The notes beneath the pieces were generated by a model. It was not told where the DNA came from and made no database searches. It was given only the letters and a program-made list of their open reading frames with translations. This document shows, piece after piece, positions 8,653 through 20,393 of a stretch of DNA of 64,000 nt. Source of the DNA: Acidobacteriota bacterium. Lineage in GTDB: Bacteria; Acidobacteriota; UBA6911; RPQK01; JAJDTT01. The stretch's first letter is position 1. Every line of letters starts with the position of its first letter. The position numbers and the translations under genes are program-made. The stretch lies in assembly GCA_965217775.1 (NCBI GenBank), contig CBDCJH010000002.1, positions 4,128,001 to 4,192,000 on the forward strand, in the 5' to 3' direction.

Positions 8653-9007
8653 CCCGTCCGGTTGATCGTTCCCGCGGGATTCCTACTGCGGTCAGGCGAC
8701 TCCATGGCGATTCATCCGACCGCTGACCGAGCGGTCAGCACACGGCAGTCCGAAGCCGGACACCTTCATCCTCAGGCAGAATCCGCCGGTGCTGACAAGC
8801 GGTCGGCAAAGCCGATTCACAATGTCTCTGAGTCAGGCAACAAAGGGGGAACAAGGGAAAAGAGAAGAGATTGCCGGCATTCAGGAGCCGATTCGGCTGC
8901 CTGTTTGTTGCCTGTGCAGGACGCCAAACATAGGGAGTCAACCACTTTACCGATTCGGCGAAGAACCCGGTAGATGACTGAAAAAGTTAATGTTTAGTAG
9001 TTCTTGA

Positions 9008-9544
9008 CTAAAGGGCAGACGGGATTGGAAATCGCCGCTCCACATGCGCGAGATGATGCCGGCCGTGCCAGGCGTAGGCCCCGACGGTGACCGCCAGTCT
9101 GGAGGCGCCCGACTCAGGGTGCACGAACTCCCGCTGGAGTTGCTCCCAGCTCAGGCTGCGCAACAGATCCACCCAACGGCAGTGGAGGGCCGCCAGGAGA
9201 TCGAGCGAAGAAGCGACCGGTTCCCGACTGTCCGGCAGCTCGGCCCAACTCTTCTCGTCGTAGGCCTTGATCACGGGCCGGTCTTCCGTCAGCGCCAACT
9301 TGAATCGAACGTAGCTGTTCATGTGACTGTCGGCCAGGTGGTGGACCACTTGCCGGACGGTCCAGCCACCCGGACGGTACGGGGTGTCCAGTTGGCCGTC
9401 GGTCAACGGAGAGACCGCCCGCCGGAGGTCGGCCGGCAACGCCGCAATATCGTCGATCCAGGCGGTGACCCGATCACGGGTCACCTCTCCCTCGAGTGAG
9501 AATTTTCCAATTGGATATCGAAGATCAGTTGTCGGTGGATTCAT
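9008..9544 (-). CDS. YfiT/BstA-like DinB-superfamily thiol transferase / metal-dependent hydrolase
   Basis: DLRYPIG, LDTPYRPGGWTVRQVVHHLADSH, YAWHGRHHLAH. Confidence 0.88.
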   Translation of the reverse strand: MNPPTTDLRYPIGKFSLEGEVTRDRVTAWIDDIAALPADLRRAVSPLTDGQLDTPYRPGGWTVRQVVHHLADSHMNSYVRFKLALTEDRPVIKAYDEKSWAELPDSREPVASSLDLLAALHCRWVDLLRSLSWEQLQREFVHPESGASRLAVTVGAYAWHGRHHLAHVERRFPIPSAL

Positions 9545-10224
9545 ATTCGATCACCTGTTTGGCTAGTCTCGGCAGCCGCGCCACTGGTGGTCTCGTCCCC
9601 TTCGCCAGTGTAGAATGCGGTCGTGTGCCCGGCCCGCGAACGCGCGGCGGCGGGATCGGTTCCGAACGCGACGGCCGCTTGTTCCCACCCCTCGCTGCTG
9701 CCGCTGATGAACGCCCGCCCGTCCGGCGAAACCGCGAATGCGGCCGGGTCGGGCATCGGCGCGGCCGGTTGCGCAAGATGGATCGCGAGTCCCAGCAGAC
9801 CCAATTCCCAGCCGACGCCGAGCGCACCCGGCCCGTACTCATCCCAGTGTTCCGAAACCTGCTGGGTGTGCGTCAGGGTCAGCCGGGCGCCGCCGGCGCC
9901 ATCGCCCGAGCAGTGGACCTCCAACCAACTGACTTCCCCGCCGAACTCCCATGTGACCGCAAAATGGGACAGAGGCTCGCACGCCGTGACCACGCCGCCC
10001 GCATTGCCTTCCAACTGATAGCGGCCCCCAAGTTCGAGCTCGCCGCTGACCGTCAGAAACCAGCGCGGAATCCGCTCGCCGTTGGTCACGGCGTCCCACA
10101 CGTCCTCGACCGACGTCGCGTAGCTGCGAGAAAGCGTGACCGCTCGCGCGGGACGCCCATCCCGCTCCATCGACCATACGGAACGCTCTGCGGCGCCAAG
10201 GTTGCCTTCGACATCGAAGTCCAT
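9541..10224 (-). CDS. SRPBCC/AHSA1-like domain protein
   Basis: EDVWDAVTNGERIPRWF, YGPGALGVGWE; 4-nt overlap with the downstream gene. Confidence 0.85.
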   Translation of the reverse strand: MDFDVEGNLGAAERSVWSMERDGRPARAVTLSRSYATSVEDVWDAVTNGERIPRWFLTVSGELELGGRYQLEGNAGGVVTACEPLSHFAVTWEFGGEVSWLEVHCSGDGAGGARLTLTHTQQVSEHWDEYGPGALGVGWELGLLGLAIHLAQPAAPMPDPAAFAVSPDGRAFISGSSEGWEQAAVAFGTDPAAARSRAGHTTAFYTGEGDETTSGAAAETSQTGDRI

Positions 10225-10289
10225 GGTTTCTCTATATATATAATGTATCCGGTCCGCCGTTGGACCCCGGGAGCGCCGGATTCCTCGTC

Positions 10290-10838
10290 CTACGACGACC
10301 TCTTCGCGTCCCCGCAGGCTTTCTCAAAAACCGGATTCGCGTTGTACTCGTCAGACTTGCCCGGTGGGATACTCAGGGATTCCCAGGAATCCCCGCGGAA
10401 GCACTTGCCCAGATAGACGATTTGTCCGACGTGATAGGACGCGTGGGCCAGAGAGAGCAGCAGGGCCTCATCGACGCCCATGGACACGCCCCGGATGATC
10501 ACGGAACGATCCAGATCGTCATCGGTAAGCTCTAGAAGCGAGCCAAAAAGCACCTGCCAACCTCGGTCCCATTTCTCCTCGATCTCGGCGCGTGACGGCG
10601 TCCGCGGTTCGAATTCCGAGTCCCGATTCCGCCACGGCTTCTCGCCGTCTGTCGTCAGGAAGTCCGTGAACCTGGATTCCAGATTGCCGGCGATGTGCCA
10701 GACGATCATGGCGATTGAGTTGGCCCCCGCCGAATCCGCCACCAGCTCCCCGGCGCTCAACTGGCGGAAAGTCCCCTCGCCGAGAGCCTTGTAGCGCTGG
10801 TACTCGGCTTCAATCAGTGACAGCAGTCCTCGACTCAT
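10290..10838 (-). CDS. DUF1572 / DinB-like protein
   Basis: NSIAMIVWHIAGNLESRFTDFLTTDGEKPWRNRDSEF, HASYHVGQIV. Confidence 0.88.
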   Translation of the reverse strand: MSRGLLSLIEAEYQRYKALGEGTFRQLSAGELVADSAGANSIAMIVWHIAGNLESRFTDFLTTDGEKPWRNRDSEFEPRTPSRAEIEEKWDRGWQVLFGSLLELTDDDLDRSVIIRGVSMGVDEALLLSLAHASYHVGQIVYLGKCFRGDSWESLSIPPGKSDEYNANPVFEKACGDAKRSS

Positions 10839-11105
10839 CGCACCCCCCCAAAGTTCCCGAAAGGACGCCGTCTAGGATACACTGTGGCCGGCGGGCGAGC
10901 CCCCGAGCAGCTTCCTTCACGAAACTTGCAACCCGAAGCGGGTTTGTGCATCCTTAGAAACCATACGGCGTGACAATTTGAACCGACAGGTTCTGTTAAC
11001 GGGAAATATCGGAACCGAGGTAAAGGCAGGGCACGCCGCCGGGTACGAAATCCCATCTTGGAGATCAACGATTCATCCCCAAAAGAGCGGAAAAGCTGCC
11101 CTCAA

Positions 11106-11504
11106 TCACGCCTGCGGCGAGTCCCCCGGGGCTGCCAGGGCTTGCCGGATCGTCTTCGCCATCCTCCAGGCCGTGACGCGGGAGATTCCCAATCCCTCAT
11201 GCAACGTCAACATGGAAGTTCTCAGGGGCATATCGGAGGAAAGCAGGTGAATCGCCAATACCCAGGTCCTCAGCTTGGTCTTGTTCTGTCCCAGGAGGGT
11301 CCCCTTGCGGACACTGAAGTACCCTTTGCAGTCCTTGCACCGATAACGCATGGCCACCTGGCGCGGGTCCCGGGTCCGGTGGCGGTACCAGCGGTCGGAG
11401 CCGCAAGCCGGACACCAAAGTTGGCCCTGCCAGCGGATGGCGGCCAGCCATTGCTCGGCGGCTTCCTCGTCGGGGAAAGTCTGGAATAATTCAGGCAAAG
11501 TCAT
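11106..11504 (-). CDS. IS1595-transposase-like Zn-ribbon + HTH protein lacking the DDE domain (truncated or domesticated)
   Basis: FPDEEAA...RW...CPACGS...YRCKDC...FSVRKGT...LGISRVTAWRM; stops before the catalytic domain. Confidence 0.75.
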   Translation of the reverse strand: MTLPELFQTFPDEEAAEQWLAAIRWQGQLWCPACGSDRWYRHRTRDPRQVAMRYRCKDCKGYFSVRKGTLLGQNKTKLRTWVLAIHLLSSDMPLRTSMLTLHEGLGISRVTAWRMAKTIRQALAAPGDSPQA

Positions 11505-11702
11505 GAGTGAACCTGCGGCGGGGCCGTCACATACGGCCCCTTCAGGGGTGCCACAGGGAAACCCGAGGGAGCTTGCGCGTCGTCACTGTCGGGTAACGAA
11601 GAGCTCGGGATAGGACTCCACACCGGGCTTCTCCAGACCGTGGGGGTAGAAAGGATGGTTGAAAACCTGCCCCTGGGTTCTGGATATCGTCGCAGCATTT
11701 TG

Positions 11703-11740
11703 AAAAAAGAAGGGGGAGACCTGATTGCAGGTCTCCCCTT
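11703..11740 (-). terminator. Rho-independent terminator of the secreted protein gene
   Basis: GGGGAGACCTG-attg-CAGGTCTCCCC hairpin with an A-run on + (U-tract on -). Confidence 0.8.
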
Positions 11741-11810
11741 CCGTTTCTACCCGGTCCGTCGATCTCCCTTGGTTGAAGAGAGTGACGTTCCTTGGATTGG
11801 CTGGACCAAC

Positions 11811-13748
11811 CTAATTAGTACCGAAGTCAGCCGCCGGAGCTGGAGGAGACTTCAGGGACCAAGAGGCCGCGAAAGTCGAAGTCGGGGTGATGAACTTCAA
11901 CACGGCTTGGCCCGTGGTGATGAATGTACGCTCGGAGTCTGCCTGCTCCACGACCAACGTGCCGGCCTTGTAGGTCCGCTCGTTCTTTGTGGGAACACCA
12001 TCCGCCTCCTCAATCCCTGTAAGGGTCGTGCCGTCGCCGTCGCCGTAGTTCATCTTACACGTCAGTGCGGAACGCACGAATTTGATCAAGCCCGGAGTGG
12101 CATTCATCATCGGATCAAGCATGGCATCCAGACCAGCGAAGGTCTTTGCACCCATAGCCGCCGAGGGGACGAGTTCCGTCAGAGAGGCGACAGTCCAGGC
12201 CCCGGCCATCATGGTTCCGGTGCACTTGGCAAGATTGGCATCGGTCATGACACTAATGCCATTGACGATGATACTGACGCCCGCCGGAGCGTCGGCAGAA
12301 TCCGTGCCACCAAATACGGGAGAGTCCTCGGCAGCAGGATCTGGCAAGGCATCCCCCATATTGTCATGCAGGGTCACCTTGTACCCCGTCATGGCGGGGA
12401 TCAACTTGTAATCGCCACCCTTAGTCTGTCTCGGGTCGCCAAAGTCATCCGCTGCGGACAGCAACACCGCAACCTGGGTGGTCTGCGTGCCCCCACCATA
12501 AAGAGCCGGCAATACCAAGGCTCCGTGGGGAATTTGGGCGTCGTCGGTTGCATTGTCATTATCTGTATCGCCTAAATTGCCTGCACCGGCGATCGCTCTG
12601 TTGGTCGAGTCGTCGGGTTCCGACTCAATACGTGATGGCACGGCAAAGGATTCACGTGCATCTTCAATCACAATGTCCAGCCCCTGACCACCCGCGTCCT
12701 TTTCTGCCAAACGACCGGTGCCGGGGACCTCTATTGGAGTAACTGTGGTCCCTGTTGCCAGCGGATCACCAGGCGGATAGAAGTTCATGTTCACAGGCGT
12801 ATCCGCGTTGAAGTCTATACCGTTCAGAGTCTGATAGTCGGTTCCTATCATCGCCATGTTGTTCACGTCAGTAACGGCCGGCCGGACCACCGGAGTTCCC
12901 CCCCAGGATGCGGTCTGATCGGATCCGCCGGCGGCGGTTCCAACCAACGCTTCCGTGAAATTCCCGGTCAGGTGGTTGAAGGCGATCGGTTCGGCATTGC
13001 CCACGGCCAAAGCACCGACGTTCTTCGACGTCACATCGGCTTCATTAATGGTAGTGGTGGGATCGTCCTTTCGACAGTCCCAAGCTTTATCGGTCGGGTG
13101 GCGGGAGAGCCCGACATTGCTAGTATTGGTCGCGGGGGATGCGCCGCGAGTTGCGTCAGTCGTGATCGCTCCGCAGTTGTCGATGTTGTCGACAGCGTGC
13201 ATGTCCGCAGCCAGAAAGGCGGGAAAGAGGATGTTCGCGAGCATGCTACCACTGTTGCCTTCATCGACGTCTTCGGTGTCCCCATCATCGACCGTGCTTG
13301 CTCCGACCGCGGTTAGAACAATCAAAAAACGACCGGAGTTGACCCCGGCGTGAAACTTGCCGTCCTCATCCTTCATGCTCATTGCGGGGAGTTCACTGAG
13401 GATACTGCTCACGTTCGTTTCCGAGCCTGCAATGTCCTCACCATCGTCATCCTGCTCTGCCGTGCCCGGAATCAAATGGTCAAAGGGGTCGACCAACACG
13501 TTTCCACCTCCGGGTACGACTCTCAGGTACCAGAGAACCCTATGCATCTCGTCGTTGTAGTACTGAGTCAGCAACGTCACCGCGCTGCCATCGTTGGCGT
13601 TGGCAACGGAGATGAAGTTCTGGTGGTACATGTTGCTGTGAAAGATCAACTGCGATCCCTTGTCGGCGGCGAGACCCTCATCCACGACCGCGGTGGCCGC
13701 GAGGATCAGGACGACGCCCAGAACCAGAATTTTGAAAATCGATTTCAT
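11811..13748 (-). CDS. Large secreted acidic hypothetical protein (645 aa), possible surface/S-layer protein
   Basis: AGGAG RBS, signal peptide MKSIFKILVLGVVLILAATAVV, D/T/A/G-rich, strong terminator. Confidence 0.8.
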   Translation of the reverse strand: MKSIFKILVLGVVLILAATAVVDEGLAADKGSQLIFHSNMYHQNFISVANANDGSAVTLLTQYYNDEMHRVLWYLRVVPGGGNVLVDPFDHLIPGTAEQDDDGEDIAGSETNVSSILSELPAMSMKDEDGKFHAGVNSGRFLIVLTAVGASTVDDGDTEDVDEGNSGSMLANILFPAFLAADMHAVDNIDNCGAITTDATRGASPATNTSNVGLSRHPTDKAWDCRKDDPTTTINEADVTSKNVGALAVGNAEPIAFNHLTGNFTEALVGTAAGGSDQTASWGGTPVVRPAVTDVNNMAMIGTDYQTLNGIDFNADTPVNMNFYPPGDPLATGTTVTPIEVPGTGRLAEKDAGGQGLDIVIEDARESFAVPSRIESEPDDSTNRAIAGAGNLGDTDNDNATDDAQIPHGALVLPALYGGGTQTTQVAVLLSAADDFGDPRQTKGGDYKLIPAMTGYKVTLHDNMGDALPDPAAEDSPVFGGTDSADAPAGVSIIVNGISVMTDANLAKCTGTMMAGAWTVASLTELVPSAAMGAKTFAGLDAMLDPMMNATPGLIKFVRSALTCKMNYGDGDGTTLTGIEEADGVPTKNERTYKAGTLVVEQADSERTFITTGQAVLKFITPTSTFAASWSLKSPPAPAADFGTN

Positions 13749-13838
13749 TTTGTAACTCCTTACTTGTTTGGTTGAAACAGAAAACACGTCAAATTCATCG
13801 TTCTCACGCCTGTCCCATAGGCTGTGCCCCTCCCCCTA

Positions 13839-13864
13839 CTTCCGATAATTCCCGTTATCGGAAG
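13839..13864. other. Putative tyrosine-recombinase site (10-6-10 palindrome)
   Basis: CTTCCGATAA-ttcccg-TTATCGGAAG, perfect inverted repeat. Confidence 0.65.
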
Positions 13865-14105
13865 CTCCAAGAAGGCACCGACGTCACGTAAGCCGGGCGC
13901 TTGTGACAGCGTTATTCGTCGTTACGTACTTCGAGAGGACTTGTTGGTCGGGGTTCAGTCATCACAGGGGTTGAGTGCCGACGGCGTTCATGCGGAACGG
14001 CGCATCCCGTCCCTTCATCGATGAGCTGAAATGACGACTCGTACTTAATTCGAGGATGGCAGATTGGATTGACGGCTGGCCATCCGGCTATTCGAGAGGA
14101 CCATT

Positions 14106-14288
14106 ATGAAACCGATGAGAACCCGTCGCGACGGTCGTCCCTGGGCCCGAAAGGGCAGCGTTTTGAAGGCTCTGCAGATCCAGAATCTCAAGGTGAACTT
14201 GCCAGCCATGGAGATCGCCAGCCGGCTGCTCGAACAACAGGAGCCCCCGGACCCCGCCCGGCGAATCGTGTCCAATCCAAGGGAATAA
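14106..14288 (+). CDS. Small hypothetical protein
   Basis: ATG preceded by GAGAGGA RBS; no recognisable motif. Confidence 0.4.
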   Translation: MKPMRTRRDGRPWARKGSVLKALQIQNLKVNLPAMEIASRLLEQQEPPDPARRIVSNPRE

Positions 14289-14295
14289 GCTCGAC

Positions 14296-14628
14296 GTGTT
14301 CCGGAAGGGTTGGCGAAAAAGGGCGCAGTTACTCTGGACGGCGACCTTCGAGGATGCGGTCGCGACCTATGTCACTTTCGGCCGAAACAAGGCCGAGATT
14401 CCCGTATACCGGCACGACAGGTCCCGGCAGGTCCTGGTGCAGACGAGCCTGACTTATCCGAGCTGCTTCCAATTCATCCCGACGGCTTTGATGACCTCGC
14501 GGCTCACGCGGCGCCGGTTGAAATCCATCCTGAGAGAATATGGGGCCATCATCGAGCACCCGGGACCAAGCACGCGCAGGAAGAAGGCTGGACGCGAGGG
14601 CGTGAATTCGGAGAGACCGGAAGCGTAA
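14296..14628 (+). CDS. Hypothetical basic protein
   Basis: GTG 7 nt after the previous stop; no recognisable motif. Confidence 0.35.
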   Translation: MFRKGWRKRAQLLWTATFEDAVATYVTFGRNKAEIPVYRHDRSRQVLVQTSLTYPSCFQFIPTALMTSRLTRRRLKSILREYGAIIEHPGPSTRRKKAGREGVNSERPEA

Positions 14629-14934
14629 TCTCGTCGACGCCGCTTCCCCTGATGAAGAGTTGGAGAGATCCTCCACGACCCGCTCTCTATTCTCTTACGT
14701 CAAGGGAGGGCAAAGAACTTCTGGGGTTTCTACGAACGTGGATCTTCCGGGGAGATCATCGGGAACCTATTTTAATCGTGATCGAATCTCCTGGGAACGC
14801 CAAATCAAACGGCTCGCGGACCTGATCGCTGCGCCAGGATGCGATGCGGCCCCTGGAACCAACGGCGCTTGCATTCCGGATTTACTTTGCAGGTGTTCGT
14901 CACGTCCATTCCCAATAAAATCAATCGGTTACCT

Positions 14935-15948
14935 TCACGATCCTCTCCCGTACCGGATCCGCGCCACGGGTCCGCGGGATGCGAGTTGCCCCCGGACATA
15001 CCGGCCCGGCATATGCGGAGAGGTCCAGCGTCCGGCCTGCTGGAGCTCCACCAGAGAGGCTCCCCGAAGGGCGAGGGACTGAGCCGACCCGACCCGGAGC
15101 GAATGCCCGGAGACTCGGACGCCGTCGATTCCGGCCTGCCTCGCCCGCTTCTGGATGACGCTCCGAATGCTCCGGGAGCTGAGGGCGCCTTCCTCCACGG
15201 TCCCCCCGACCCGAATCGGTCGAAACAAAGGCCCGGAATTGAAGGCGCCATCGGTCATCCAGGCACGGATCCGCCGCATGGTGAGCGCTCCCAGAAACAG
15301 GATCGCTCCCTCCCCCTCCTGGTCGGTCTTGGAATTGTGAATCGTGATCAAGCCGGCGCCTCCGTTGTCCTCCCGGATGTCGGCGCACTGAAGCGCGGCG
15401 ACTTCCGAGACCCGAAGCATGGCGTCAGACATGATCGAGATCAGGGCAGCGTCGCGGAAAGCGGCAAGAGACCCCGGCTCGACGGCCGTAATGAGGGCGG
15501 CAATGATGTCGGCCATCTCCCAACTGATCCCTTCGACCTGACCCCGGCCCCTCTTGCGTCCCTCGCGCCGGAACCCGGCCAAGACCCGATCCGTGGCCGG
15601 CCCCACAGGTGAACGCGCACCCGTGGTCTTGGCCTGAAAGCGGACGGCGGCCACGACCATGCTGGCTGAGGAGGGGGAACGCCCCCGATGAAACAGAGAC
15701 GCGAGGTAGCTGGCGAGCCGACCGTCCTCGAGGGTAGCATCGTGTTTGTCCAGATAGTCCTGCAAACGCTGAAGGGCGCCTTGATAGGCTCGGCGCGTGT
15801 TTTTCGACAGGGACGCGGCGGCGAGATCGGCGACTCTCCGGGGAGCGCCGGACAAGGATGAATCCGAAGCCGGGACGGCGACCGAATCTGTCCGGACATC
15901 GGAATGGCGGGCGGGCGGTGGGGCGTTGGCAGGTTGCGGGTTGGGCAT
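14935..15948 (-). CDS. Cre-like tyrosine recombinase/integrase
   Basis: SKNTRRAY, RDAALI...LRVSE, SKTDQEGEG, SGHSLRVG, AGRW...GRY (R-K-HxxR-W-Y set, with Trp as in Cre); GGAG RBS. Confidence 0.92.
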   Translation of the reverse strand: MPNPQPANAPPPARHSDVRTDSVAVPASDSSLSGAPRRVADLAAASLSKNTRRAYQGALQRLQDYLDKHDATLEDGRLASYLASLFHRGRSPSSASMVVAAVRFQAKTTGARSPVGPATDRVLAGFRREGRKRGRGQVEGISWEMADIIAALITAVEPGSLAAFRDAALISIMSDAMLRVSEVAALQCADIREDNGGAGLITIHNSKTDQEGEGAILFLGALTMRRIRAWMTDGAFNSGPLFRPIRVGGTVEEGALSSRSIRSVIQKRARQAGIDGVRVSGHSLRVGSAQSLALRGASLVELQQAGRWTSPHMPGRYVRGQLASRGPVARIRYGRGS

Positions 15949-15977
15949 AAAATCTCCGTTTCTCCCCCATCGGGGTA

Positions 15978-16003
15978 CATCCGTTAAGCCCAGTTATCAG
16001 AAT
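15978..16003. other. Second degenerate recombinase site 30 bp upstream of the recombinase start
   Basis: CATCCGTTAA-gcccag-TTATCAGAAT; each arm 8/10 identical to the 13839 site, same 6-bp spacing. Confidence 0.55.
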
Positions 16004-16499
16004 TAGTTTATCTAATTTATTGCCCGGCAGCGTGGGACCAAAAAACCATGCCTTCAGGGAGCAGAACGGACATCTGAAATCAGGTGGGTATCCTAAGAAT
16101 AGGACAGTAATTTGTCTAATTGAAGCTGACAGGGAAATCCTACGTAAAATAGACTTATCTCCTCACGATCGCGATATTCGCCGCTGGCCGCCATCTGCCG
16201 CAGAGCGGCCGCCCATGGTGGAATTGCAAGCCACCTCAGCCAGAATCGATGGGCGTCCTTTATCTAGCCGCAGCCTTCGCAACGCTAATGATAAGAGGGT
16301 AGTATCTTTACACATACACTGTGATATCGGGGTGAGCACTTTAGCCATCGTGGTGATTTTCGGGTGAGTTTTTGCACCAATTGGCCATCCTTGCAGCGAA
16401 TGGAGCTCGATCCGCCTCCAACCCGGCTCGTACCTTCGTGTCGACGGGCTGCGATGTTCAACCGGATCTCGCGCCCGGGTGCGACGAGACAGGGCATAA

Positions 16500-16657
16500 C
16501 AGCCCGTGGCAAAAGTCATCACGGCATTCGACCGTCCCTGCATCCCGGCGGACGGCGTTGCGATTCGGGCACATACTCCCGGTATGCACCCGAATCGCGC
16601 CTTGTCCGGCGGGCGCAGGAACGGTCTCGGTGCTCGCGGGACTTTCACCACGGACTG
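16500..16657. mobile_element. 158-bp MITE, copy 1
   Basis: TIRs CAGCCCGTGGCAAAAGTC / GACTTTCACCACGGACTG, flanked by ATAA on both sides; near-identical to 33051-33208. Confidence 0.85.
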
Positions 16658-16719
16658 ATAAGCACGCCGGTTCGTTGACCGCCTGGGGCGTTGAACCTAT
16701 TCTGCCACCGGGAGGAGAT

Positions 16720-18159
16720 ATGAAAAGAGTTCTTTTGGCATGCCTGCTGGGATCACTGCCGGTGCTGGGTGGGGGATCCTTCGTCGACATCGGATCCGAC
16801 CGTCAGCTCTTTCTGGACCGGGATCTCATCGACGAGATGCGCGGGGCCGAATTCGAGTTGCATCGGCCGGTGCTGCGCGAAGAGGTCCTGCGTTACGACA
16901 AACCGTGGGAGGGGGACACTTCGTGGCACCCCATCGTGATCCGGGACGGGGAACGCTTCCGGATGTGGTACCGGGTCTCCCAAGGCAACCATGACGGCGT
17001 GGCTCAGACGGCCTACGCCGAGAGCAAGGACGGGATTCGTTGGGAGCGCCCCTCGCTGGGACTGGTGGAGTCGAAAGGGTCCACCGACAACAACCTGATC
17101 TGGCCCACGCCCGGCAACCAGGGGATCAACATGTGCGTCTTCAAGGACCCGAACCCCGGCGTGCCGGAGGGGGAACGGTACAAGGCGATCGTGCAGACCC
17201 GTGACCTCCACGGGCTGGTCTCTGCGGACGGACTGCATTGGAAACCGATCCAGCCCGATCCCCTGATCCAACGCCTCCAGGACCAGGTCAACGACGGTCC
17301 TCATGCCGCCTTCTGGGATCCCTGGCAGTCCCGGTACGTCATCTACAAGCGCGGCTGGTGGGGAGCCACCCCGGAAAAGCAACTCGATGCCTCGGGAACC
17401 AGCGGAGAGGCCAATCGGACCATTCGCCGTTTCACCTCCCGGGACTTCCGCACCTGGGACGGCCCCGAATGGGTGGAGATCCCCTTCGGGACCCAACCCC
17501 GGGAACAGTTCTACACCAGCGCCGCCATCCCCTATCCCTGGGCGCGGAACGTCTACCTCATGTTTCCCATGCGCTTCATCCTGGACCGGGAAGGCGAGGG
17601 CTGGCCCTTCCCCGGCATCTCGGACATCTGCCTGCTCAGCAGCCGCGACGGGCTGCGCTGGCGGCGGACCTTCCGGGAGGCCTGGATCCGTCCCGGACTC
17701 GACCGGAACAACTGGCACGAGCGCGCCATGTCCTTCGGCTCGGGCCTGGTCCGGACCGCTCCGGGAGAGCTGTCCATGTACATGACCCACAACTACCGGA
17801 CCCCCGACGCACACATCCGGCGGGTGACGCTGCGGCAGGACGGGTTCATCTCGGTTCATGCCCCCGATCTGGGAGGCGAGTTCACGACCCGGCCGTTGAA
17901 ATTCAAGGGGAGCCGCTTGCGGATCAACTACTCCACCTCGGTCACGGGATCGGTCCGGGTGGAGGTGCTCAACCATTTCTCCCGTCCCGTCCTCGGCTTC
18001 AACCTGAAGGACAGCAGCGAGATCTACGGGGACGAGCTGGACCGGGTCGTCCGCTGGGGGGAGAACGAAGACCTGAGTACACTGGAAGGCCAAGTGGTCC
18101 GCCTCCGCTTCGTCCTGCGCGACGCGAACCTCTATTCCTTCCAGTTTGGTGCGCCGTAG
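16720..18159 (+). CDS. Secreted beta-propeller glycosidase-like protein (paralogue 1, subfamily A)
   Basis: GGAGG RBS, signal peptide, RQLFLD, YAESKDG.RW, LRQDGFIS, VRLRFVL.DANLYSFQF. Confidence 0.85.
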   Translation: MKRVLLACLLGSLPVLGGGSFVDIGSDRQLFLDRDLIDEMRGAEFELHRPVLREEVLRYDKPWEGDTSWHPIVIRDGERFRMWYRVSQGNHDGVAQTAYAESKDGIRWERPSLGLVESKGSTDNNLIWPTPGNQGINMCVFKDPNPGVPEGERYKAIVQTRDLHGLVSADGLHWKPIQPDPLIQRLQDQVNDGPHAAFWDPWQSRYVIYKRGWWGATPEKQLDASGTSGEANRTIRRFTSRDFRTWDGPEWVEIPFGTQPREQFYTSAAIPYPWARNVYLMFPMRFILDREGEGWPFPGISDICLLSSRDGLRWRRTFREAWIRPGLDRNNWHERAMSFGSGLVRTAPGELSMYMTHNYRTPDAHIRRVTLRQDGFISVHAPDLGGEFTTRPLKFKGSRLRINYSTSVTGSVRVEVLNHFSRPVLGFNLKDSSEIYGDELDRVVRWGENEDLSTLEGQVVRLRFVLRDANLYSFQFGAP

Positions 18160-18165
18160 GGGTCT

Positions 18166-18254
18166 GGAGCGGCGGATTTCCGGTCGCCGATTCCATAGAA
18201 GAATTGGAGGACTGAAGTTTCCCCTCCCATATGGGGGACAAGACTGTCCCTTCC
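18166..18254. repeat. GGAG-footed REP-like hairpin cluster
   Basis: GGAGCGGCGGATTTCCGGTCGCCG and GGGGGACAAGACTGTCCC; related copies at 9021, 24717, 48014, 54850. Confidence 0.6.
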
Positions 18255-18360
18255 TACTGGTCCCTGGGTACATTCTACGGAACAAAATTCGAGGCAAGCC
18301 CATTCAAATCAATGATGTGAAGCGAAGAATCAAGTCAGACAGGCTGGAAGTTCAGTCTAA

Positions 18361-20393
18361 ACGGAACTTCACTTCCGAAATCCGTCTAATCGTTTGTATG
18401 TCAGGAAGATAGACGAAATCAACCTGCCCAATTACTGGCAACAAATCGGGTCGGGTTGACGTCGAGCAGCTCGAAAACCTTCGCCTGCAGCGGCGTCGGC
18501 TTGGCGAACATCGGAAACGGATGCTCCGGAGCGTCCGGCAGGGTCACCTGGTTCAGGGTGAGCGTGCCGAGATCCGCCAGCAGCGTCCGGAGGCTATGCA
18601 CGGGGAGCCCCTCAGCCGTTTGCTTGCGCGCGGCCTTAGCTTTCGTGCGCGCGGACACCTTTGCCTTTTCCACCGGTGAGGTCCGCAACGCTCGCGCCCC
18701 GGGACGATCCTCCTCCTCGAACAGCAGCGGCGCCAGACGCCGCCTCAGGTGCCATTGCAGGTAGTACGCCAGCAGGCACAGAAAGACGTGCCCGCGCACA
18801 TGGTCCTCGCTGTAGACGAAGACCGGGCGCAGGGCCAGCTGCGCCGTCTTGAGCGAGCGAAACGCCCATTCGACCTGGGAGAGGCTTTTGTACGCCTCCA
18901 CCGCCTCCGCAGCCCCGATGTCGGAGGCCTCCAAGCTGGTGCGAATGATGTAGATGCCGTCCAGTCGCGCTTCCGCGTCGATCTTCTCCTGCCGCCTCGA
19001 CCAGCGGATGTCCTCGTCGGTGACTTCAATCAGGAAGTGTTTGTCCACCTTCTTGCGGCTGACGTCCCGGCCCACCCGGCGGTTGATGGCCTCCTGGCCG
19101 CGTAGCCGAGCGTGGGGGGAGCGCACGGCGCTGGCGATGGTCTCCAGGATCTTCTCGGTCGCGCACAGCAGATCCTCGCGCTTGCGGGCCCGCTCCTGCC
19201 GCAAGCGGGGATTGAGGCAGACCAGCAGCCGTTCGCCGGGAAAATCCGGGCTCAGAATCTCCGCGACCCCGTCCGGAACCAACTCGCCCGGCTGCAACGG
19301 CGCCGGTTCCTCGCCCTTCCCGCCCGATTTTGGGGGCCGCATCAGCTTGCGGATGGCGCCCGTTCTCAAGGCCGAGATCCAGGCCAGACCGGCCGGTGAA
19401 AGGTCCTCGCGCAGCCGCGCCGTGGTGAGCATGCCGCGGTCCCCGACCAAAGCGATGGATTCGATGCCGAAGCGCCCCTGGATCTTCTTGACCTGCGCCG
19501 CCACCGTGCTCGGATCCCCGGTGTTGCCCGGGAACACCTCCACGGACAGCGGGCAACCGTCCCCGGCGCAGAGCAGGCCGAAGACGATCTGCTTCTTACC
19601 TTTCTTGCCGTCTCGGTTGTGGCCGAATGCGGCCAGGGAACAGCAGCGCCCCTCGAGATAGCTGGAGGAGACGTCATAAAGCAAAAGTGTCCGGCCCTCC
19701 AGGTGGCGCCGCGCCAAGCTCTTCTCGATCCAGACTTGGCGGCTCAGCAACCAGTCGAGCATCTGAAGCATCTCGTTGCCGCGGACCGGACCGAGGCCGA
19801 GGACGGGGCCGAGGCTGCTGGTGGCGGTCTCCGGAGACAGGCCCCGGGCGGTGGCGAGCTTGGAGGCGGGTTGGAGCACCCGGGCGACGAGGGCGGCGAG
19901 GGCAAGGTCGCGGTTGCGGCTGCGTTTGCGGTGCAGGAGGCGTTCGAGACCGAGTTGGCGGCCAAGACCGAGGAGGGCGGCGACATGACCATGGGGAAGG
20001 GCGCGGCGGATGGCGAGGTCATCGTCGAGGGGGCGATAGACTTGGCCCCCCTTGAGCAGGGCGCGGATGCCGTCGACGATCTCCGGGGGGAGCTTGGAGA
20101 GGTTGGCGAGGGTGGTGCGGCGGATGCGCTTGCCCTCGCGTTTGGCGTGGCGGAAGAGGATGGCGGGTGGGCTGTTGCGGTTGGGGATGACATCGACGTG
20201 GTAGGACATGGTGGAGAGGCCTCTTACATGGAAACAATATCAATCACTGATACTCCTACCATATAAGGGAATACTGACATAATATGCGAGTCCGTACATG
20301 GAAACAAATATCCAGTTGGAGGCTCGGGCTAAGGAACCGTAAACCGCGCTATTTCAATGATTTACTATGGCTTGAGCGGCAGTGAAGTTCCGT
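18361..20393 (-). mobile_element. IS1634-family insertion sequence, 2033 bp, intact
   Basis: 13-bp perfect TIRs ACGGAACTTCACT / AGTGAAGTTCCGT; CTAA direct repeat on both sides. Confidence 0.9.
18419..20209 (-). CDS. IS1634-family DDE transposase
   Basis: LLYDVSSSYLEG, FGHNRDGKKGKKQI, VGDRGM, YKSLSQVEWAFRSLK, RGHVFLCLLAY. Confidence 0.95.
   Translation of the reverse strand: MSYHVDVIPNRNSPPAILFRHAKREGKRIRRTTLANLSKLPPEIVDGIRALLKGGQVYRPLDDDLAIRRALPHGHVAALLGLGRQLGLERLLHRKRSRNRDLALAALVARVLQPASKLATARGLSPETATSSLGPVLGLGPVRGNEMLQMLDWLLSRQVWIEKSLARRHLEGRTLLLYDVSSSYLEGRCCSLAAFGHNRDGKKGKKQIVFGLLCAGDGCPLSVEVFPGNTGDPSTVAAQVKKIQGRFGIESIALVGDRGMLTTARLREDLSPAGLAWISALRTGAIRKLMRPPKSGGKGEEPAPLQPGELVPDGVAEILSPDFPGERLLVCLNPRLRQERARKREDLLCATEKILETIASAVRSPHARLRGQEAINRRVGRDVSRKKVDKHFLIEVTDEDIRWSRRQEKIDAEARLDGIYIIRTSLEASDIGAAEAVEAYKSLSQVEWAFRSLKTAQLALRPVFVYSEDHVRGHVFLCLLAYYLQWHLRRRLAPLLFEEEDRPGARALRTSPVEKAKVSARTKAKAARKQTAEGLPVHSLRTLLADLGTLTLNQVTLPDAPEHPFPMFAKPTPLQAKVFELLDVNPTRFVASNWAG

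What the first reader, a model, noticed from the sequence alone, without database searches (positions are those of the whole stretch)
13839..16003. Cre-like recombinase enclosed by two lox/dif-like sites: mini integrative element or switch
Seen: a perfect 10-6-10 palindrome (CTTCCGATAA-N6-TTATCGGAAG) and a degenerate copy (CATCCGTTAA-N6-TTATCAGAAT) bound a 2.17-kb segment. It holds a recombinase with a Cre-type R/K/HxxR/W/Y set and two small orphan ORFs. Established: Cre, XerCD and TnpI act on inverted arms around 6-8-bp spacers. Inference: these are attL/attR of a minimal element, or a switch affecting the adjacent surface-protein promoter, and a possible new recombinase/target pair. Caveat: the spacers differ (TTCCCG vs GCCCAG), which normally blocks recombination.
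Basis: partly seen in the sequence, partly recalled or inferred. Interest (0 to 1): 0.7.

Follow-up and report, generated by a model that had tools for sequence, protein, structure and literature searches.

The report
Cre-like recombinase flips a surface-protein gene
A Cre-like enzyme in a soil/marine-type Acidobacteriota genome appears to flip a 2.85-kb piece of DNA carrying a secreted-protein gene, so that the gene is joined to or cut off from a fixed control element: an on/off switch, not the small mobile element first proposed.

Summary
Both reported sites exist exactly as described, and the enzyme between them is clearly Cre-like. But the two sites are not partners. S3 has the same 6-bp spacer in reverse complement.

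Across 10 complete copies of this module in one Acidobacteriota genus, the S1 and S3 spacers are reverse complements in 10 of 10. They use four different spacer sequences.

The flipped state occurs in nature:
- two related loci carry exactly the predicted hybrid sites;
- one metagenome contig joins 11005 to 13848 on opposite strands.

The flipped segment holds a 645-aa secreted protein gene of no known family and a zinc-ribbon gene.

A two-block promoter-like motif lies just outside S3 and points into the segment. The same motif sits upstream of non-switched paralogues of the secreted protein. I therefore infer a fixed control element with a flipping gene, and that the window shows the OFF state.

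This is a new variant of a known kind, a tyrosine-recombinase inversion switch. Orientation-dependent expression and mixing of both states within one population remain untested.

The parts
10928..10954 (+). Promoter-like two-block motif GCAAC-N16-CATCCT. It lies outside S3 and points into the invertible segment.
   Evidence: The two blocks are conserved and the 16 nt between them vary in 9 of 9 modules aligned. The own genome has 9 exact hits. One is here and two lie upstream of the unswitched paralogue at C2:4637394-4639091. In five related genomes, 17 of 43 hits lie at modules (8) or upstream of unswitched paralogues (9). The promoter function is inferred.
10874..10989 (.). Conserved flank outside S3, which is the outer end of the repeated module.
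   Evidence: Homology to the copies at other chromosomal places (L002, L007) ends at window 10920 and 10874.
10990..11015 (.). S3: GTTCTGTTAA-CGGGAA-ATATCGGAAC. This is the recombination partner of S1, in inverted orientation.
   Evidence: Found. An independent repeat finder reports it as inverted pair I2 (10988-11014 / 13840-13866, 85% complementary). Its spacer is the reverse complement of S1's in 10 of 10 complete modules.
11000..13854 (.). Invertible segment, measured spacer to spacer (about 2.85 kb).
   Evidence: L003 carries it reversed. L045 carries the whole flipped arrangement. A metagenome contig joins 11005 to 13848 on opposite strands.
11106..11504 (-). Zinc-ribbon protein (132 aa). 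It resembles the N-terminal DNA-binding part of IS1595-type transposases and has no catalytic domain.
   Evidence: PF12760 at E 5.8e-9. phrog_25593 profile positions 15-130 of 344. It is 87-96% identical in 8 of 8 loci and 95% in L044 and L045. Its role is unknown.
11713..11738 (-). Terminator-like hairpin after the secreted-protein gene.
   Evidence: 11-bp stem followed by a T run. This is a consensus match only.
11811..13748 (-). Secreted protein (645 aa from the conserved ATG). It has a signal peptide, is rich in beta strands and has a variable middle. This is the switched gene.
   Evidence: No Pfam, NCBIfam or PHROG hit. The family has 188 proteins, none named. It is 41-85% identical across loci. 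AF2 gives pLDDT 68 and pTM 0.78. Foldseek finds nothing at E<=0.001. The N-terminal domain resembles the 1nc7_A beta sandwich at Z 8.7.
13749..13838 (-). Conserved 90-nt leader between S1 and the ATG. It travels with the gene.
   Evidence: Alignment. It is colinear with the leader behind the motif in L045.
13839..13864 (.). S1: CTTCCGATAA-TTCCCG-TTATCGGAAG, with perfect arms.
   Evidence: The arms are identical in all 9 modules in the window's orientation, and the outer arm is intact in L003. This site type occurs only in the window's genus, in 7 of 137 genomes of the class, with 0 hits for the backwards control.
14106..14288 (+). Conserved 60-aa basic protein. The model predicts two helices joined by a short turn. 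It is a candidate DNA-binding accessory or regulator.
   Evidence: Intact in 11 of 11 copies, with 41 invariant residues. Third-codon-position bias is 309/141/700. The AF2 model is weak at pLDDT 60.7. The role is inferred.
14296..14628 (+). 110-codon ORF in a variable spacer. It is patchily conserved and probably dispensable or decaying.
14935..15948 (-). Cre-like tyrosine recombinase (337 aa), located outside the invertible segment.
   Evidence: It is 73-86% identical in 8 loci of the same genus.
15978..16003 (.). S2: a degenerate site 30 bp upstream of the recombinase start. It marks the other end of the repeated module. It is a probable operator or relic, not a recombination partner.
   Evidence: Its spacer matches neither S1's nor the reverse complement in 0 of 9 copies. 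Its outer arm decays in L004, L007 and L008. Homology to L002 and L007 starts at 16002 and 16004.

Best explanation
This is a site-specific inversion switch. The Cre-like recombinase (14935-15948) binds 10-6-10 sites and exchanges strands in the 6-bp spacers of S1 (13839-13864) and S3 (10990-11015). The two spacers are identical but face each other, so recombination flips the 2.85 kb between them. That segment carries a promoterless secreted-protein gene with its leader at the S1 end, and a zinc-ribbon gene at the S3 end.

A fixed promoter-like element (GCAAC-N16-CATCCT, 10928-10954) sits just outside S3 and points inward. In the window's orientation it faces the tail of the zinc-ribbon gene, and the secreted-protein gene is cut off from it (OFF). 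After inversion the leader and gene lie directly behind it (ON). The zinc-ribbon gene then reads out through the hybrid site toward the 60-aa gene.

S2, just upstream of the recombinase start codon, has a different spacer. It most likely serves as an operator or is a relic.

Genomes with several modules give each module its own spacer. One or two recombinase genes can therefore serve all modules in trans without recombining one module with another.

Shown here: the sites, the spacer covariation, and both orientations in nature. Inferred: catalysis by this particular enzyme, the promoter function of the motif, and which state is ON.
For: 1. **Inverted pair.** S3 is found by pattern search, by a genome scan and by the repeat finder (I2).

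2. **Spacer covariation.** In 10 of 10 complete modules the S3 spacer is the reverse complement of the S1 spacer. Four spacer types occur:
- CGGGAA in the window, L001, L004, L005, L006 and L008;
- CCGAAA in L002 and L007;
- CAGGAT in L044;
- TGCGAT in L045.

3. **The flipped state exists.**
- L003 has the predicted hybrid site CTTCCGATAA-CGGGAA-ATATCGGAAC, followed by window 12289-10985 in reverse.
- L045 has motif, hybrid site, leader, gene, zinc-ribbon gene, hybrid site and 60-aa gene in that order. This is colinear with the ON junction predicted for the window.
- A contig of run X10 joins 11005 to 13848 on opposite strands, with 144 nt on the shorter side.
- Contigs end at 10997 (X5) and 13849 (X10). 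These are the exact bases where the two states would diverge.

4. **Cre-like enzyme next to the sites**.

5. **Motif.** It accounts for 3 of 9 own-genome hits and 17 of 43 hits in five relatives. At 7 of 8 modules in those relatives it lies outside S3 facing inward. At L045 and at six unswitched paralogues it lies upstream in sense, 75-330 nt from the ATG.

6. **One genome, four spacers.** G005 holds four modules with four different spacers and only two recombinase genes of this type.
Against: - No RNA data were available, so expression in either state was not seen.
- The motif matches the sigma-70 consensus poorly (about 7 of 12) and the promoter scan did not list it.
- Only contigs could be laid, not raw reads. 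Both states within one clonal population are therefore not shown. The X10 junction contig differs from the window at 14 of about 320 bases, so it comes from a related strain.
- Nine of 11 assembled modules are in the window's orientation, which would make OFF the common state.
- All modules come from one genus, so they are not independent samples.
- No experiment links this enzyme to these sites. Two modules lack a recombinase gene, which requires action in trans.
Confidence: 0.72

Rival explanations
1. One reading: S1 and S2 are the attL and attR of a 2.17-kb mini integrative element that carries the recombinase and excises as a circle.
For: Two related sites do flank the recombinase gene. 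S2 coincides with one end of the repeated module.
Against: - The S1 and S2 spacers differ in 9 of 9 copies. S1's spacer covaries with S3's instead.
- S2's arms decay in 4 of 9 copies while S1's are invariant.
- The recombinase-less modules L044 and L045 keep S1, the 60-aa gene and sequence up to about window 14427. The missing part is therefore not bounded by S1.
Confidence: 0.03
2. The same S1/S3 inversion occurs, but the logic is reversed or different. Either the promoter for the secreted protein lies on the S1 side, so the window state is ON. Or the main output is which neighbour the zinc-ribbon gene reads into: the DinB-like gene in one state, the 60-aa gene in the other.
For: - Nine of 11 assembled modules have the gene's 5' end next to S1.
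- About 50 bp outside S1 is moderately conserved.
- In L045 the zinc-ribbon gene, the 60-aa gene and the 110-codon ORF all run in the same direction.
Against: - The only noncoding block conserved in all modules and shared with unswitched paralogues is the motif outside S3.
- No comparable two-block element was seen on the S1 side.
- No consensus promoter was listed there.
Confidence: 0.15
3. The reversed copies are rare, fixed evolutionary rearrangements or assembly errors. The sites serve another purpose, such as operators or dimer resolution.
For: Only contigs and finished assemblies were available. No single sample was shown to hold both states at the same sequence identity.
Against: - Breakpoints fall exactly in the spacers in three independent cases.
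- Repeats of 26 bp are short for homologous recombination (established knowledge).
- Four compensated spacer changes would have no reason to exist without strand exchange between S1 and S3.
- Contig ends sit at the predicted divergence bases.
Confidence: 0.07
4. In addition to the switch, the whole 4.3-5.1-kb module (S2 to about 100 bp beyond S3) is or was a mobile integrative unit. On this view S2 is an old integration junction.
For: - The module occurs at several unrelated chromosomal places. L002 and L007 share the module but not their flanks.
- Homology begins at or inside S2. S2's inner arm is conserved while its outer arm and spacer vary.
Against: - No matching site with S2's spacer was found at the other end.
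- No circle or empty site was seen.
- The window's copy is syntenic in five other genomes, which points to long vertical descent.
Confidence: 0.15

Closest known systems
Cre/loxP of phage P1 and the Cre-type recombinases (Dre, VCre, Vika, Nigri, Panto, YR series)
   Same: - Cre is the closest solved protein: 17 of 17 PDB hits, with the catalytic R-E-K-H-R-W-Y aligned.
- The target is a simple site of two inverted arms around an asymmetric spacer, lying next to the gene.
- Spacer identity decides the partner and spacer orientation decides the outcome. This is stated for Cre in PMC10250229 (passages read).
   Different: - The arms are 10 bp and the spacer 6 bp, against 13 and 8.
- The published screen for new Cre-type pairs searched only 8-bp spacers with 11-15-bp arms (PMC10250229, passages). 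It would have missed this class.
- The setting is chromosomal and the use is gene inversion, not plasmid-prophage maintenance (the latter recalled).
- Identity to Cre is low, with an E-value of only about 1e-15.
Invertible gene segments read from a fixed outside promoter (phage Mu G segment/Gin, P1 C segment/Cin). Recalled, not tested here.
   Same: The promoter stays fixed and a multi-kilobase gene segment flips behind it.
   Different: - Those systems use serine invertases with an enhancer and Fis, and they swap between two alternative gene sets.
- Here a tyrosine recombinase acts and only one end carries a gene to express, so the result is on/off.
FimB/FimE-fimS of E. coli and the tyrosine-recombinase invertons of Bacteroides. 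Recalled; the Bacteroides work was seen only as a reference in PMC11602134.
   Same: A tyrosine recombinase encoded next to the switch gives phase variation of a surface structure.
   Different: - In those systems a short element (a few hundred bp) carrying the promoter flips and the genes stay put.
- Here the genes flip and the control element stays put.
- The sites here are lox-like full sites rather than short inverted repeats with host-factor sites.
hsdS invertons of Type I restriction systems, driven by Cre-like or PsrA-type tyrosine recombinases (PMC7672463, abstract only; PMC9881135, passages)
   Same: A neighbouring tyrosine recombinase drives programmed inversions of coding DNA.
   Different: - Those inversions cut inside genes and create new alleles.
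- Here both sites are intergenic, 90 nt before a start codon and 91 nt after a stop codon, so whole genes flip unchanged.

Membership tests
Cre-type simple tyrosine recombinase | Catalytic residues R, (E), K, H-x-x-R, W and Y in the C-terminal domain | tested here: met
   R179, E182, K207, H282, R285, W308 and Y317 align to Cre R173, E176, K201, H289, R292, W315 and Y324.
Cre-type simple tyrosine recombinase | Closer to Cre than to other recombinases with solved structures or curated models | tested here: met
   17 of 17 PDB hits at E<=0.001 are Cre or Tre. The XerC, XerD and XerA models score 46-69 bits against cut-offs of 220-335.
Cre-type simple tyrosine recombinase | A 34-bp target made of 13-bp arms and an 8-bp spacer | tested here: not met
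   All sites have 10-bp (effectively 9-10) arms and a 6-bp spacer.
Cre-type simple tyrosine recombinase | Acts alone on minimal sites, without accessory proteins | not testable with these tools
   Two conserved small DNA-binding-like genes (the 60-aa and 132-aa proteins) accompany every module. This leaves the question open.
Site-specific inversion switch (inverton, phase variation) | Two recombination sites in inverted orientation with identical crossover regions | tested here: met
   10 of 10 complete modules, with four covarying spacers.
Site-specific inversion switch (inverton, phase variation) | Both orientations found, with breakpoints at the sites | tested here: met
   L003, L045 and the X10 contig.
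Site-specific inversion switch (inverton, phase variation) | Both orientations within one clonal population (reversibility) | tested here: inconclusive
   Only contigs were laid. Contigs end at the predicted divergence bases 10997 and 13849, but the junction contig is from a related strain.
Site-specific inversion switch (inverton, phase variation) | Expression depends on orientation | not tested
   No RNA run was examined. This is inferred from the position of the motif.
   0 of 9 S2 spacers equal the S1 spacer or its reverse complement.
   L044 and L045 lack the recombinase but keep sequence well beyond S1.
XerC/XerD-dif chromosome dimer resolution | Scores as XerC or XerD by the curated equivalog models | tested here: not met
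   TIGR02224 scores 46.2 against a cut-off of 335, and TIGR02225 scores 52.3 against 330.
Shufflon (Rci type) | Several sites delimiting several segments that reshuffle | tested here: not met
   There are only two compatible sites per module. Half-site and full-site scans of 9000-18500 find no further site.

The most novel reading that the evidence does not exclude
One or two Cre-like recombinases run a set of up to four independent one-bit switches in a single genome. Each switch is kept separate by its own 6-bp spacer, and some switches have no recombinase gene of their own. The 60-aa gene becomes co-directional with the zinc-ribbon gene only in the flipped state. This could feed the current state back onto the direction of the next flip. 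If so, the system would be a natural multi-register DNA memory built from minimal 26-bp sites. It would also supply ready-made orthogonal lox-like pairs with 6-bp spacers.
Probability: 0.3. Interest if true: 0.75.

Novelty: new variant of a known kind. Interest (0 to 1): 0.6.

Why it matters
- **A new phylum for this mechanism.** My searches found no described programmed DNA inversion or phase variation in Acidobacteriota: searches returned 0 papers, and the ten best of 62 have 0 mentions. The two large surveys I checked by text search also have 0 occurrences (PMC9881135; PMC11602134).
- **An unusual layout.** Whole genes flip against a fixed control element, and the enzyme is a tyrosine rather than a serine recombinase.
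- **A natural experiment on spacers.** Four compensated spacer variants in otherwise identical sites show spacer orthogonality at work in nature.
- **A possible tool.** A Cre relative that uses 26-bp sites with 6-bp spacers falls outside the search space of published screens for new Cre-type tools (PMC10250229).
- **A pointer to function.** The switched gene family (188 proteins, unnamed, no known fold match) is marked as something these bacteria need to show or hide. That fits a surface or secreted protein exposed to phages or hosts.

Tried and rejected
**Searches and checks that led nowhere or were set aside**
- **S1xS2 excision.** None of the 15 joints listed links about 13850 to about 15990. 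Contigs cannot show absence, so this is not used as evidence.
- **Habitat.** No habitat claim is made from them.
- **Promoter scan**. It lists no site upstream of the secreted-protein gene on either flank. The motif outside S3 falls below its threshold.
- **Rfam** on 9000-19000: 0 matches.
- **Recombinase paralogue** at 37% identity (C2:1357672-1358526) and a 65-aa fragment at C2:2115573: no similar site nearby.
- **Homologues at 54-57% identity** in G002 and G006 (L029, L030). They have none of the companion genes and a different site type, so the module is not general to the wider family of more than 3600 proteins.
- **Metagenome-contig scan:** only 3 distant loci (24-42% identity), of no use.
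- **Secreted protein.** No Pfam, NCBIfam or PHROG hit. The Atlas gives only unnamed clusters. Foldseek against the PDB gives nothing at E<=0.001. VIA-align gives only a common beta sandwich for residues 30-291 (1nc7_A, Z 8.7; next 6.2; the rest below 5). The C-terminal two thirds were barely tested.
- **60-aa protein.** No Pfam hit even at E 5. The Atlas lead DUF5681 is weak at 0.90 with 140 shared features, under the 170 guide value. The AF2 model has pLDDT 60.7 and pTM 0.20. That is too weak for a fold search, so none was run.
- **Second att site.** I looked for a site with S2's spacer at the far end of the module and found none.
- **Hairpin between the two motif blocks.** It is only partly kept across copies. 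I read this stretch as promoter spacer rather than a terminator, but that is a judgement.
- **Unswitched paralogue's upstream region.** BLAST against both junction states gave only chance-level matches. The shared motif was found by eye and then counted.
- **Supplementary tables** of the papers were closed. Tables S2 and S3 of PMC10250229, which list about 500 predicted recombinase/site pairs, might contain relatives of this enzyme.
Full report
**1.

The window reads CTTCCGATAA-TTCCCG-TTATCGGAAG at 13839-13864 (S1) and CATCCGTTAA-GCCCAG-TTATCAGAAT at 15978-16003 (S2). With up to 3 mismatches the S1 pattern occurs once in the window, and in 0 of 100 shuffles.

Between the two sites, on the minus strand, lies a 337-aa tyrosine recombinase (14935-15948; PF00589, E 2.6e-13). 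Against all PDB sequences its only hits are Cre and the Cre derivative Tre (17 of 17; best E 7e-16 over residues 80-331). R179, E182, K207, H282, R285, W308 and Y317 align to Cre's catalytic residues. The curated XerC, XerD and XerA/integron models score far under their cut-offs. 'Cre-like' is therefore a fair description.

**2. A third site changes the picture**

A slightly degenerate pattern finds one more site at 10990-11015, S3: GTTCTGTTAA-CGGGAA-ATATCGGAAC (5 matches against 0.01 expected). Its spacer is the reverse complement of S1's. The repeat finder reports the same pair on its own (I2, 27 nt, 85% complementary, 2825 nt apart).

S1 and S3 enclose two genes, both on the minus strand:
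- a secreted-protein gene (11811-13748);
- a 132-aa zinc-ribbon gene (11106-11504; PF12760).

The recombinase and S2 lie outside this segment.

**3. Related copies**

Eight loci in Acidobacteriota assemblies encode the same recombinase at 73-86% identity.
- All eight have an S1-type site.
- All seven that extend far enough have S3.
- S2 passes my threshold in four and is visibly degenerate in the other four.

Two further modules without a recombinase gene turned up in genome G005 (L044; L045).

In all 10 complete modules the S3 spacer is the reverse complement of the S1 spacer, across four spacer types:

| Spacer | Modules |
|---|---|
| CGGGAA | window, L001, L004, L005, L006, L008 |
| CCGAAA | L002, L007 |
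| CAGGAT | L044 |
| TGCGAT | L045 |

Each change of type needs matched changes at two sites 2.8 kb apart. That only makes sense if strands are exchanged between them. S2's spacer (CTGGGC, CCGGGC, CTGCAT, CTGAGT or ATGGGC) matches S1's in 0 of 9 copies.

The exact S1-type site occurs in 7 of 137 genomes of the class, all in the window's genus. The backwards control gives 0. These modules are relatives within one genus, so they are not independent samples. The four spacer types and the different chromosomal places are, however, separate events.

**4. The flipped state exists**

Inversion predicts hybrid sites: the outer S1 arm joined to the inner S3 arm at one end, and the outer S3 arm joined to the inner S1 arm at the other.

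- **L003** has CTTCCGATAA-CGGGAA-ATATCGGAAC, followed by the zinc-ribbon end of the segment in reverse (window 12289-10985 aligns to L003 3844-2551).
- **L045** shows the whole flipped arrangement with both hybrid sites. Its arms match those of its sister module L044.
- **Run X10.** In contigs of four public runs, one 466-nt contig of X10 joins 11005 to 13848 on opposite strands. That is the spacer-to-arm junction predicted for the S3 side.
- **Contig ends.** Contigs also end at 10997 (X5) and 13849 (X10). These are the first bases at which the two states would differ, as expected if both paths are present in a sample.

The caveats are that these are contigs and that the junction contig comes from a related strain (14 differences in about 320 bases). 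Mixing within one clone is therefore not shown.

The tally of assembled modules is nine in the window's orientation, two flipped, plus the X10 contig.

**5. What the flip does (inferred)**

Neither site cuts a gene. S1 is 90 nt before the ATG and S3 is 91 nt after the zinc-ribbon stop codon.

The best-conserved noncoding block is about 75 bp outside S3. It is kept even in copies at other chromosomal places. It contains two invariant blocks, GCAAC and CATCYT, separated by 16 variable bases. That is the pattern of a promoter, and it points into the segment.

The same motif lies in sense orientation 75-330 nt upstream of paralogues of the secreted protein that have no switch.
- In the own genome it accounts for 3 of the 9 exact hits.
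- In five relatives it accounts for 17 of 43 hits: 8 at modules and 9 before six unswitched paralogues. The backwards control gives 13 hits in all.
- In L045 the motif is followed by the hybrid site, the leader and the gene. This is colinear with the junction I predicted for the window.

I conclude that the control element is fixed and the gene flips, and that the window shows the disconnected (OFF) state. The motif is a poor sigma-70 match and was not listed by the promoter scan. An alternative sigma factor is possible, but that is a guess from recall. No RNA data were examined.

**6. The other parts**

- **60-codon gene (14106-14288).** It is real. It is intact in 11 of 11 copies with 41 invariant residues and a third-position bias of 309/141/700. 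A weak model shows two helices with a short turn. It has no family.
- **Zinc-ribbon protein.** At 87-96% identity it is better conserved than the recombinase. It resembles the N-terminal part of IS1595 transposases, of which the genome has several full copies at 33-37% identity.
- **Gene order in the flipped state.** The zinc-ribbon gene, the 60-aa gene and the 110-codon ORF run in one direction. This could couple their expression to the state. That is speculation.
- **110-codon ORF.** It is patchy and has no counterpart in the compact modules.
- **S2.** It lies 30 bp before the recombinase start and marks the point where homology between dispersed copies begins. An operator or an old junction are both possible.

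**7. The switched protein**

It belongs to a family of 188 unnamed proteins with no Pfam domain. It has a signal peptide and a variable middle part (41-85% identity).

The model is mostly beta (pLDDT 68, pTM 0.78). Foldseek finds nothing at E<=0.001. VIA-align finds a small beta sandwich for the N-terminal domain (1nc7_A, Z 8.7) and carbohydrate-binding modules near Z 4. This is weak. It suggests a secreted or surface protein and nothing more specific.

**8. Comparison and novelty**

The system works like Cre/lox used for inversion, and like the classic invertible gene segments read from an outside promoter. It is not a member of the narrow Cre/loxP class by site geometry: 10-6-10 against 13-8-13.

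The published screen for new Cre-type pairs required 8-bp spacers (PMC10250229, passages read). I found no paper linking Acidobacteria to invertible DNA. The two surveys I text-searched do not mention the phylum.

I rate it a new variant of a known kind.

Noticed in passing
window 16497-16661: A MITE-like repeat of about 165 bp. It gives 268 BLAST hits in the own genome, the 24 best listed at 96-100% identity. It also causes contig depths of 9,000-39,000 in three of the four metagenome runs laid, X5, X6 and X10. It sits between S2 and the glycoside-hydrolase-like gene and inflates that gene's listed ORF (16372-18159). The real start is probably near 16720.
   Followed up: partly
own genome C1:27396, C2:1999447, C2:5269986, C2:5852636: A second family of lox-like palindromes, GTCCGTTAA-N6-TTAACGGAC. 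Three of them share the spacer CTGAAA/TTTCAG. The site on the 144-kb contig C1 shares one flank (96% over 328 bp) with the chromosomal site at 5269986. That is the pattern expected after site-specific exchange between replicons. Similar sites with the same spacer lie about 215 bp downstream of the 54-57% recombinase homologues in G002 and G006.
   Followed up: partly
own genome C2:4637394-4639091 and upstream to about 4639440: An unswitched paralogue of the secreted protein (46% identity) with two tandem copies of the GCAAC-N16-CATCTT motif upstream.
   Followed up: yes
L047 (G004:C1:1845500-1851000): Apparently a decayed module fixed in the ON layout. In order it has the motif, a secreted-protein paralogue, a zinc-ribbon gene (63%) and a fragment of the 60-aa gene (65% over 43 aa). 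It has no recognisable sites and no recombinase.
   Followed up: partly
L001 2276-3527 (G005): The last 325 bp or so of the glycoside-hydrolase-like gene (window 17837-18161) are repeated three more times in tandem upstream of the full copy in L001 (protein matches).
   Followed up: no
window 18419-20209: A 596-aa DDE transposase (PF01609, E 3.2e-12) on the minus strand. The neighbourhood is rich in mobile DNA.
   Followed up: no
window 16012/16659: Contigs in runs X6 and X10 join 16012 to 16659, skipping 646 bp just outside S2 including the MITE. Related strains probably lack this insert, as do the syntenic loci.
   Followed up: no
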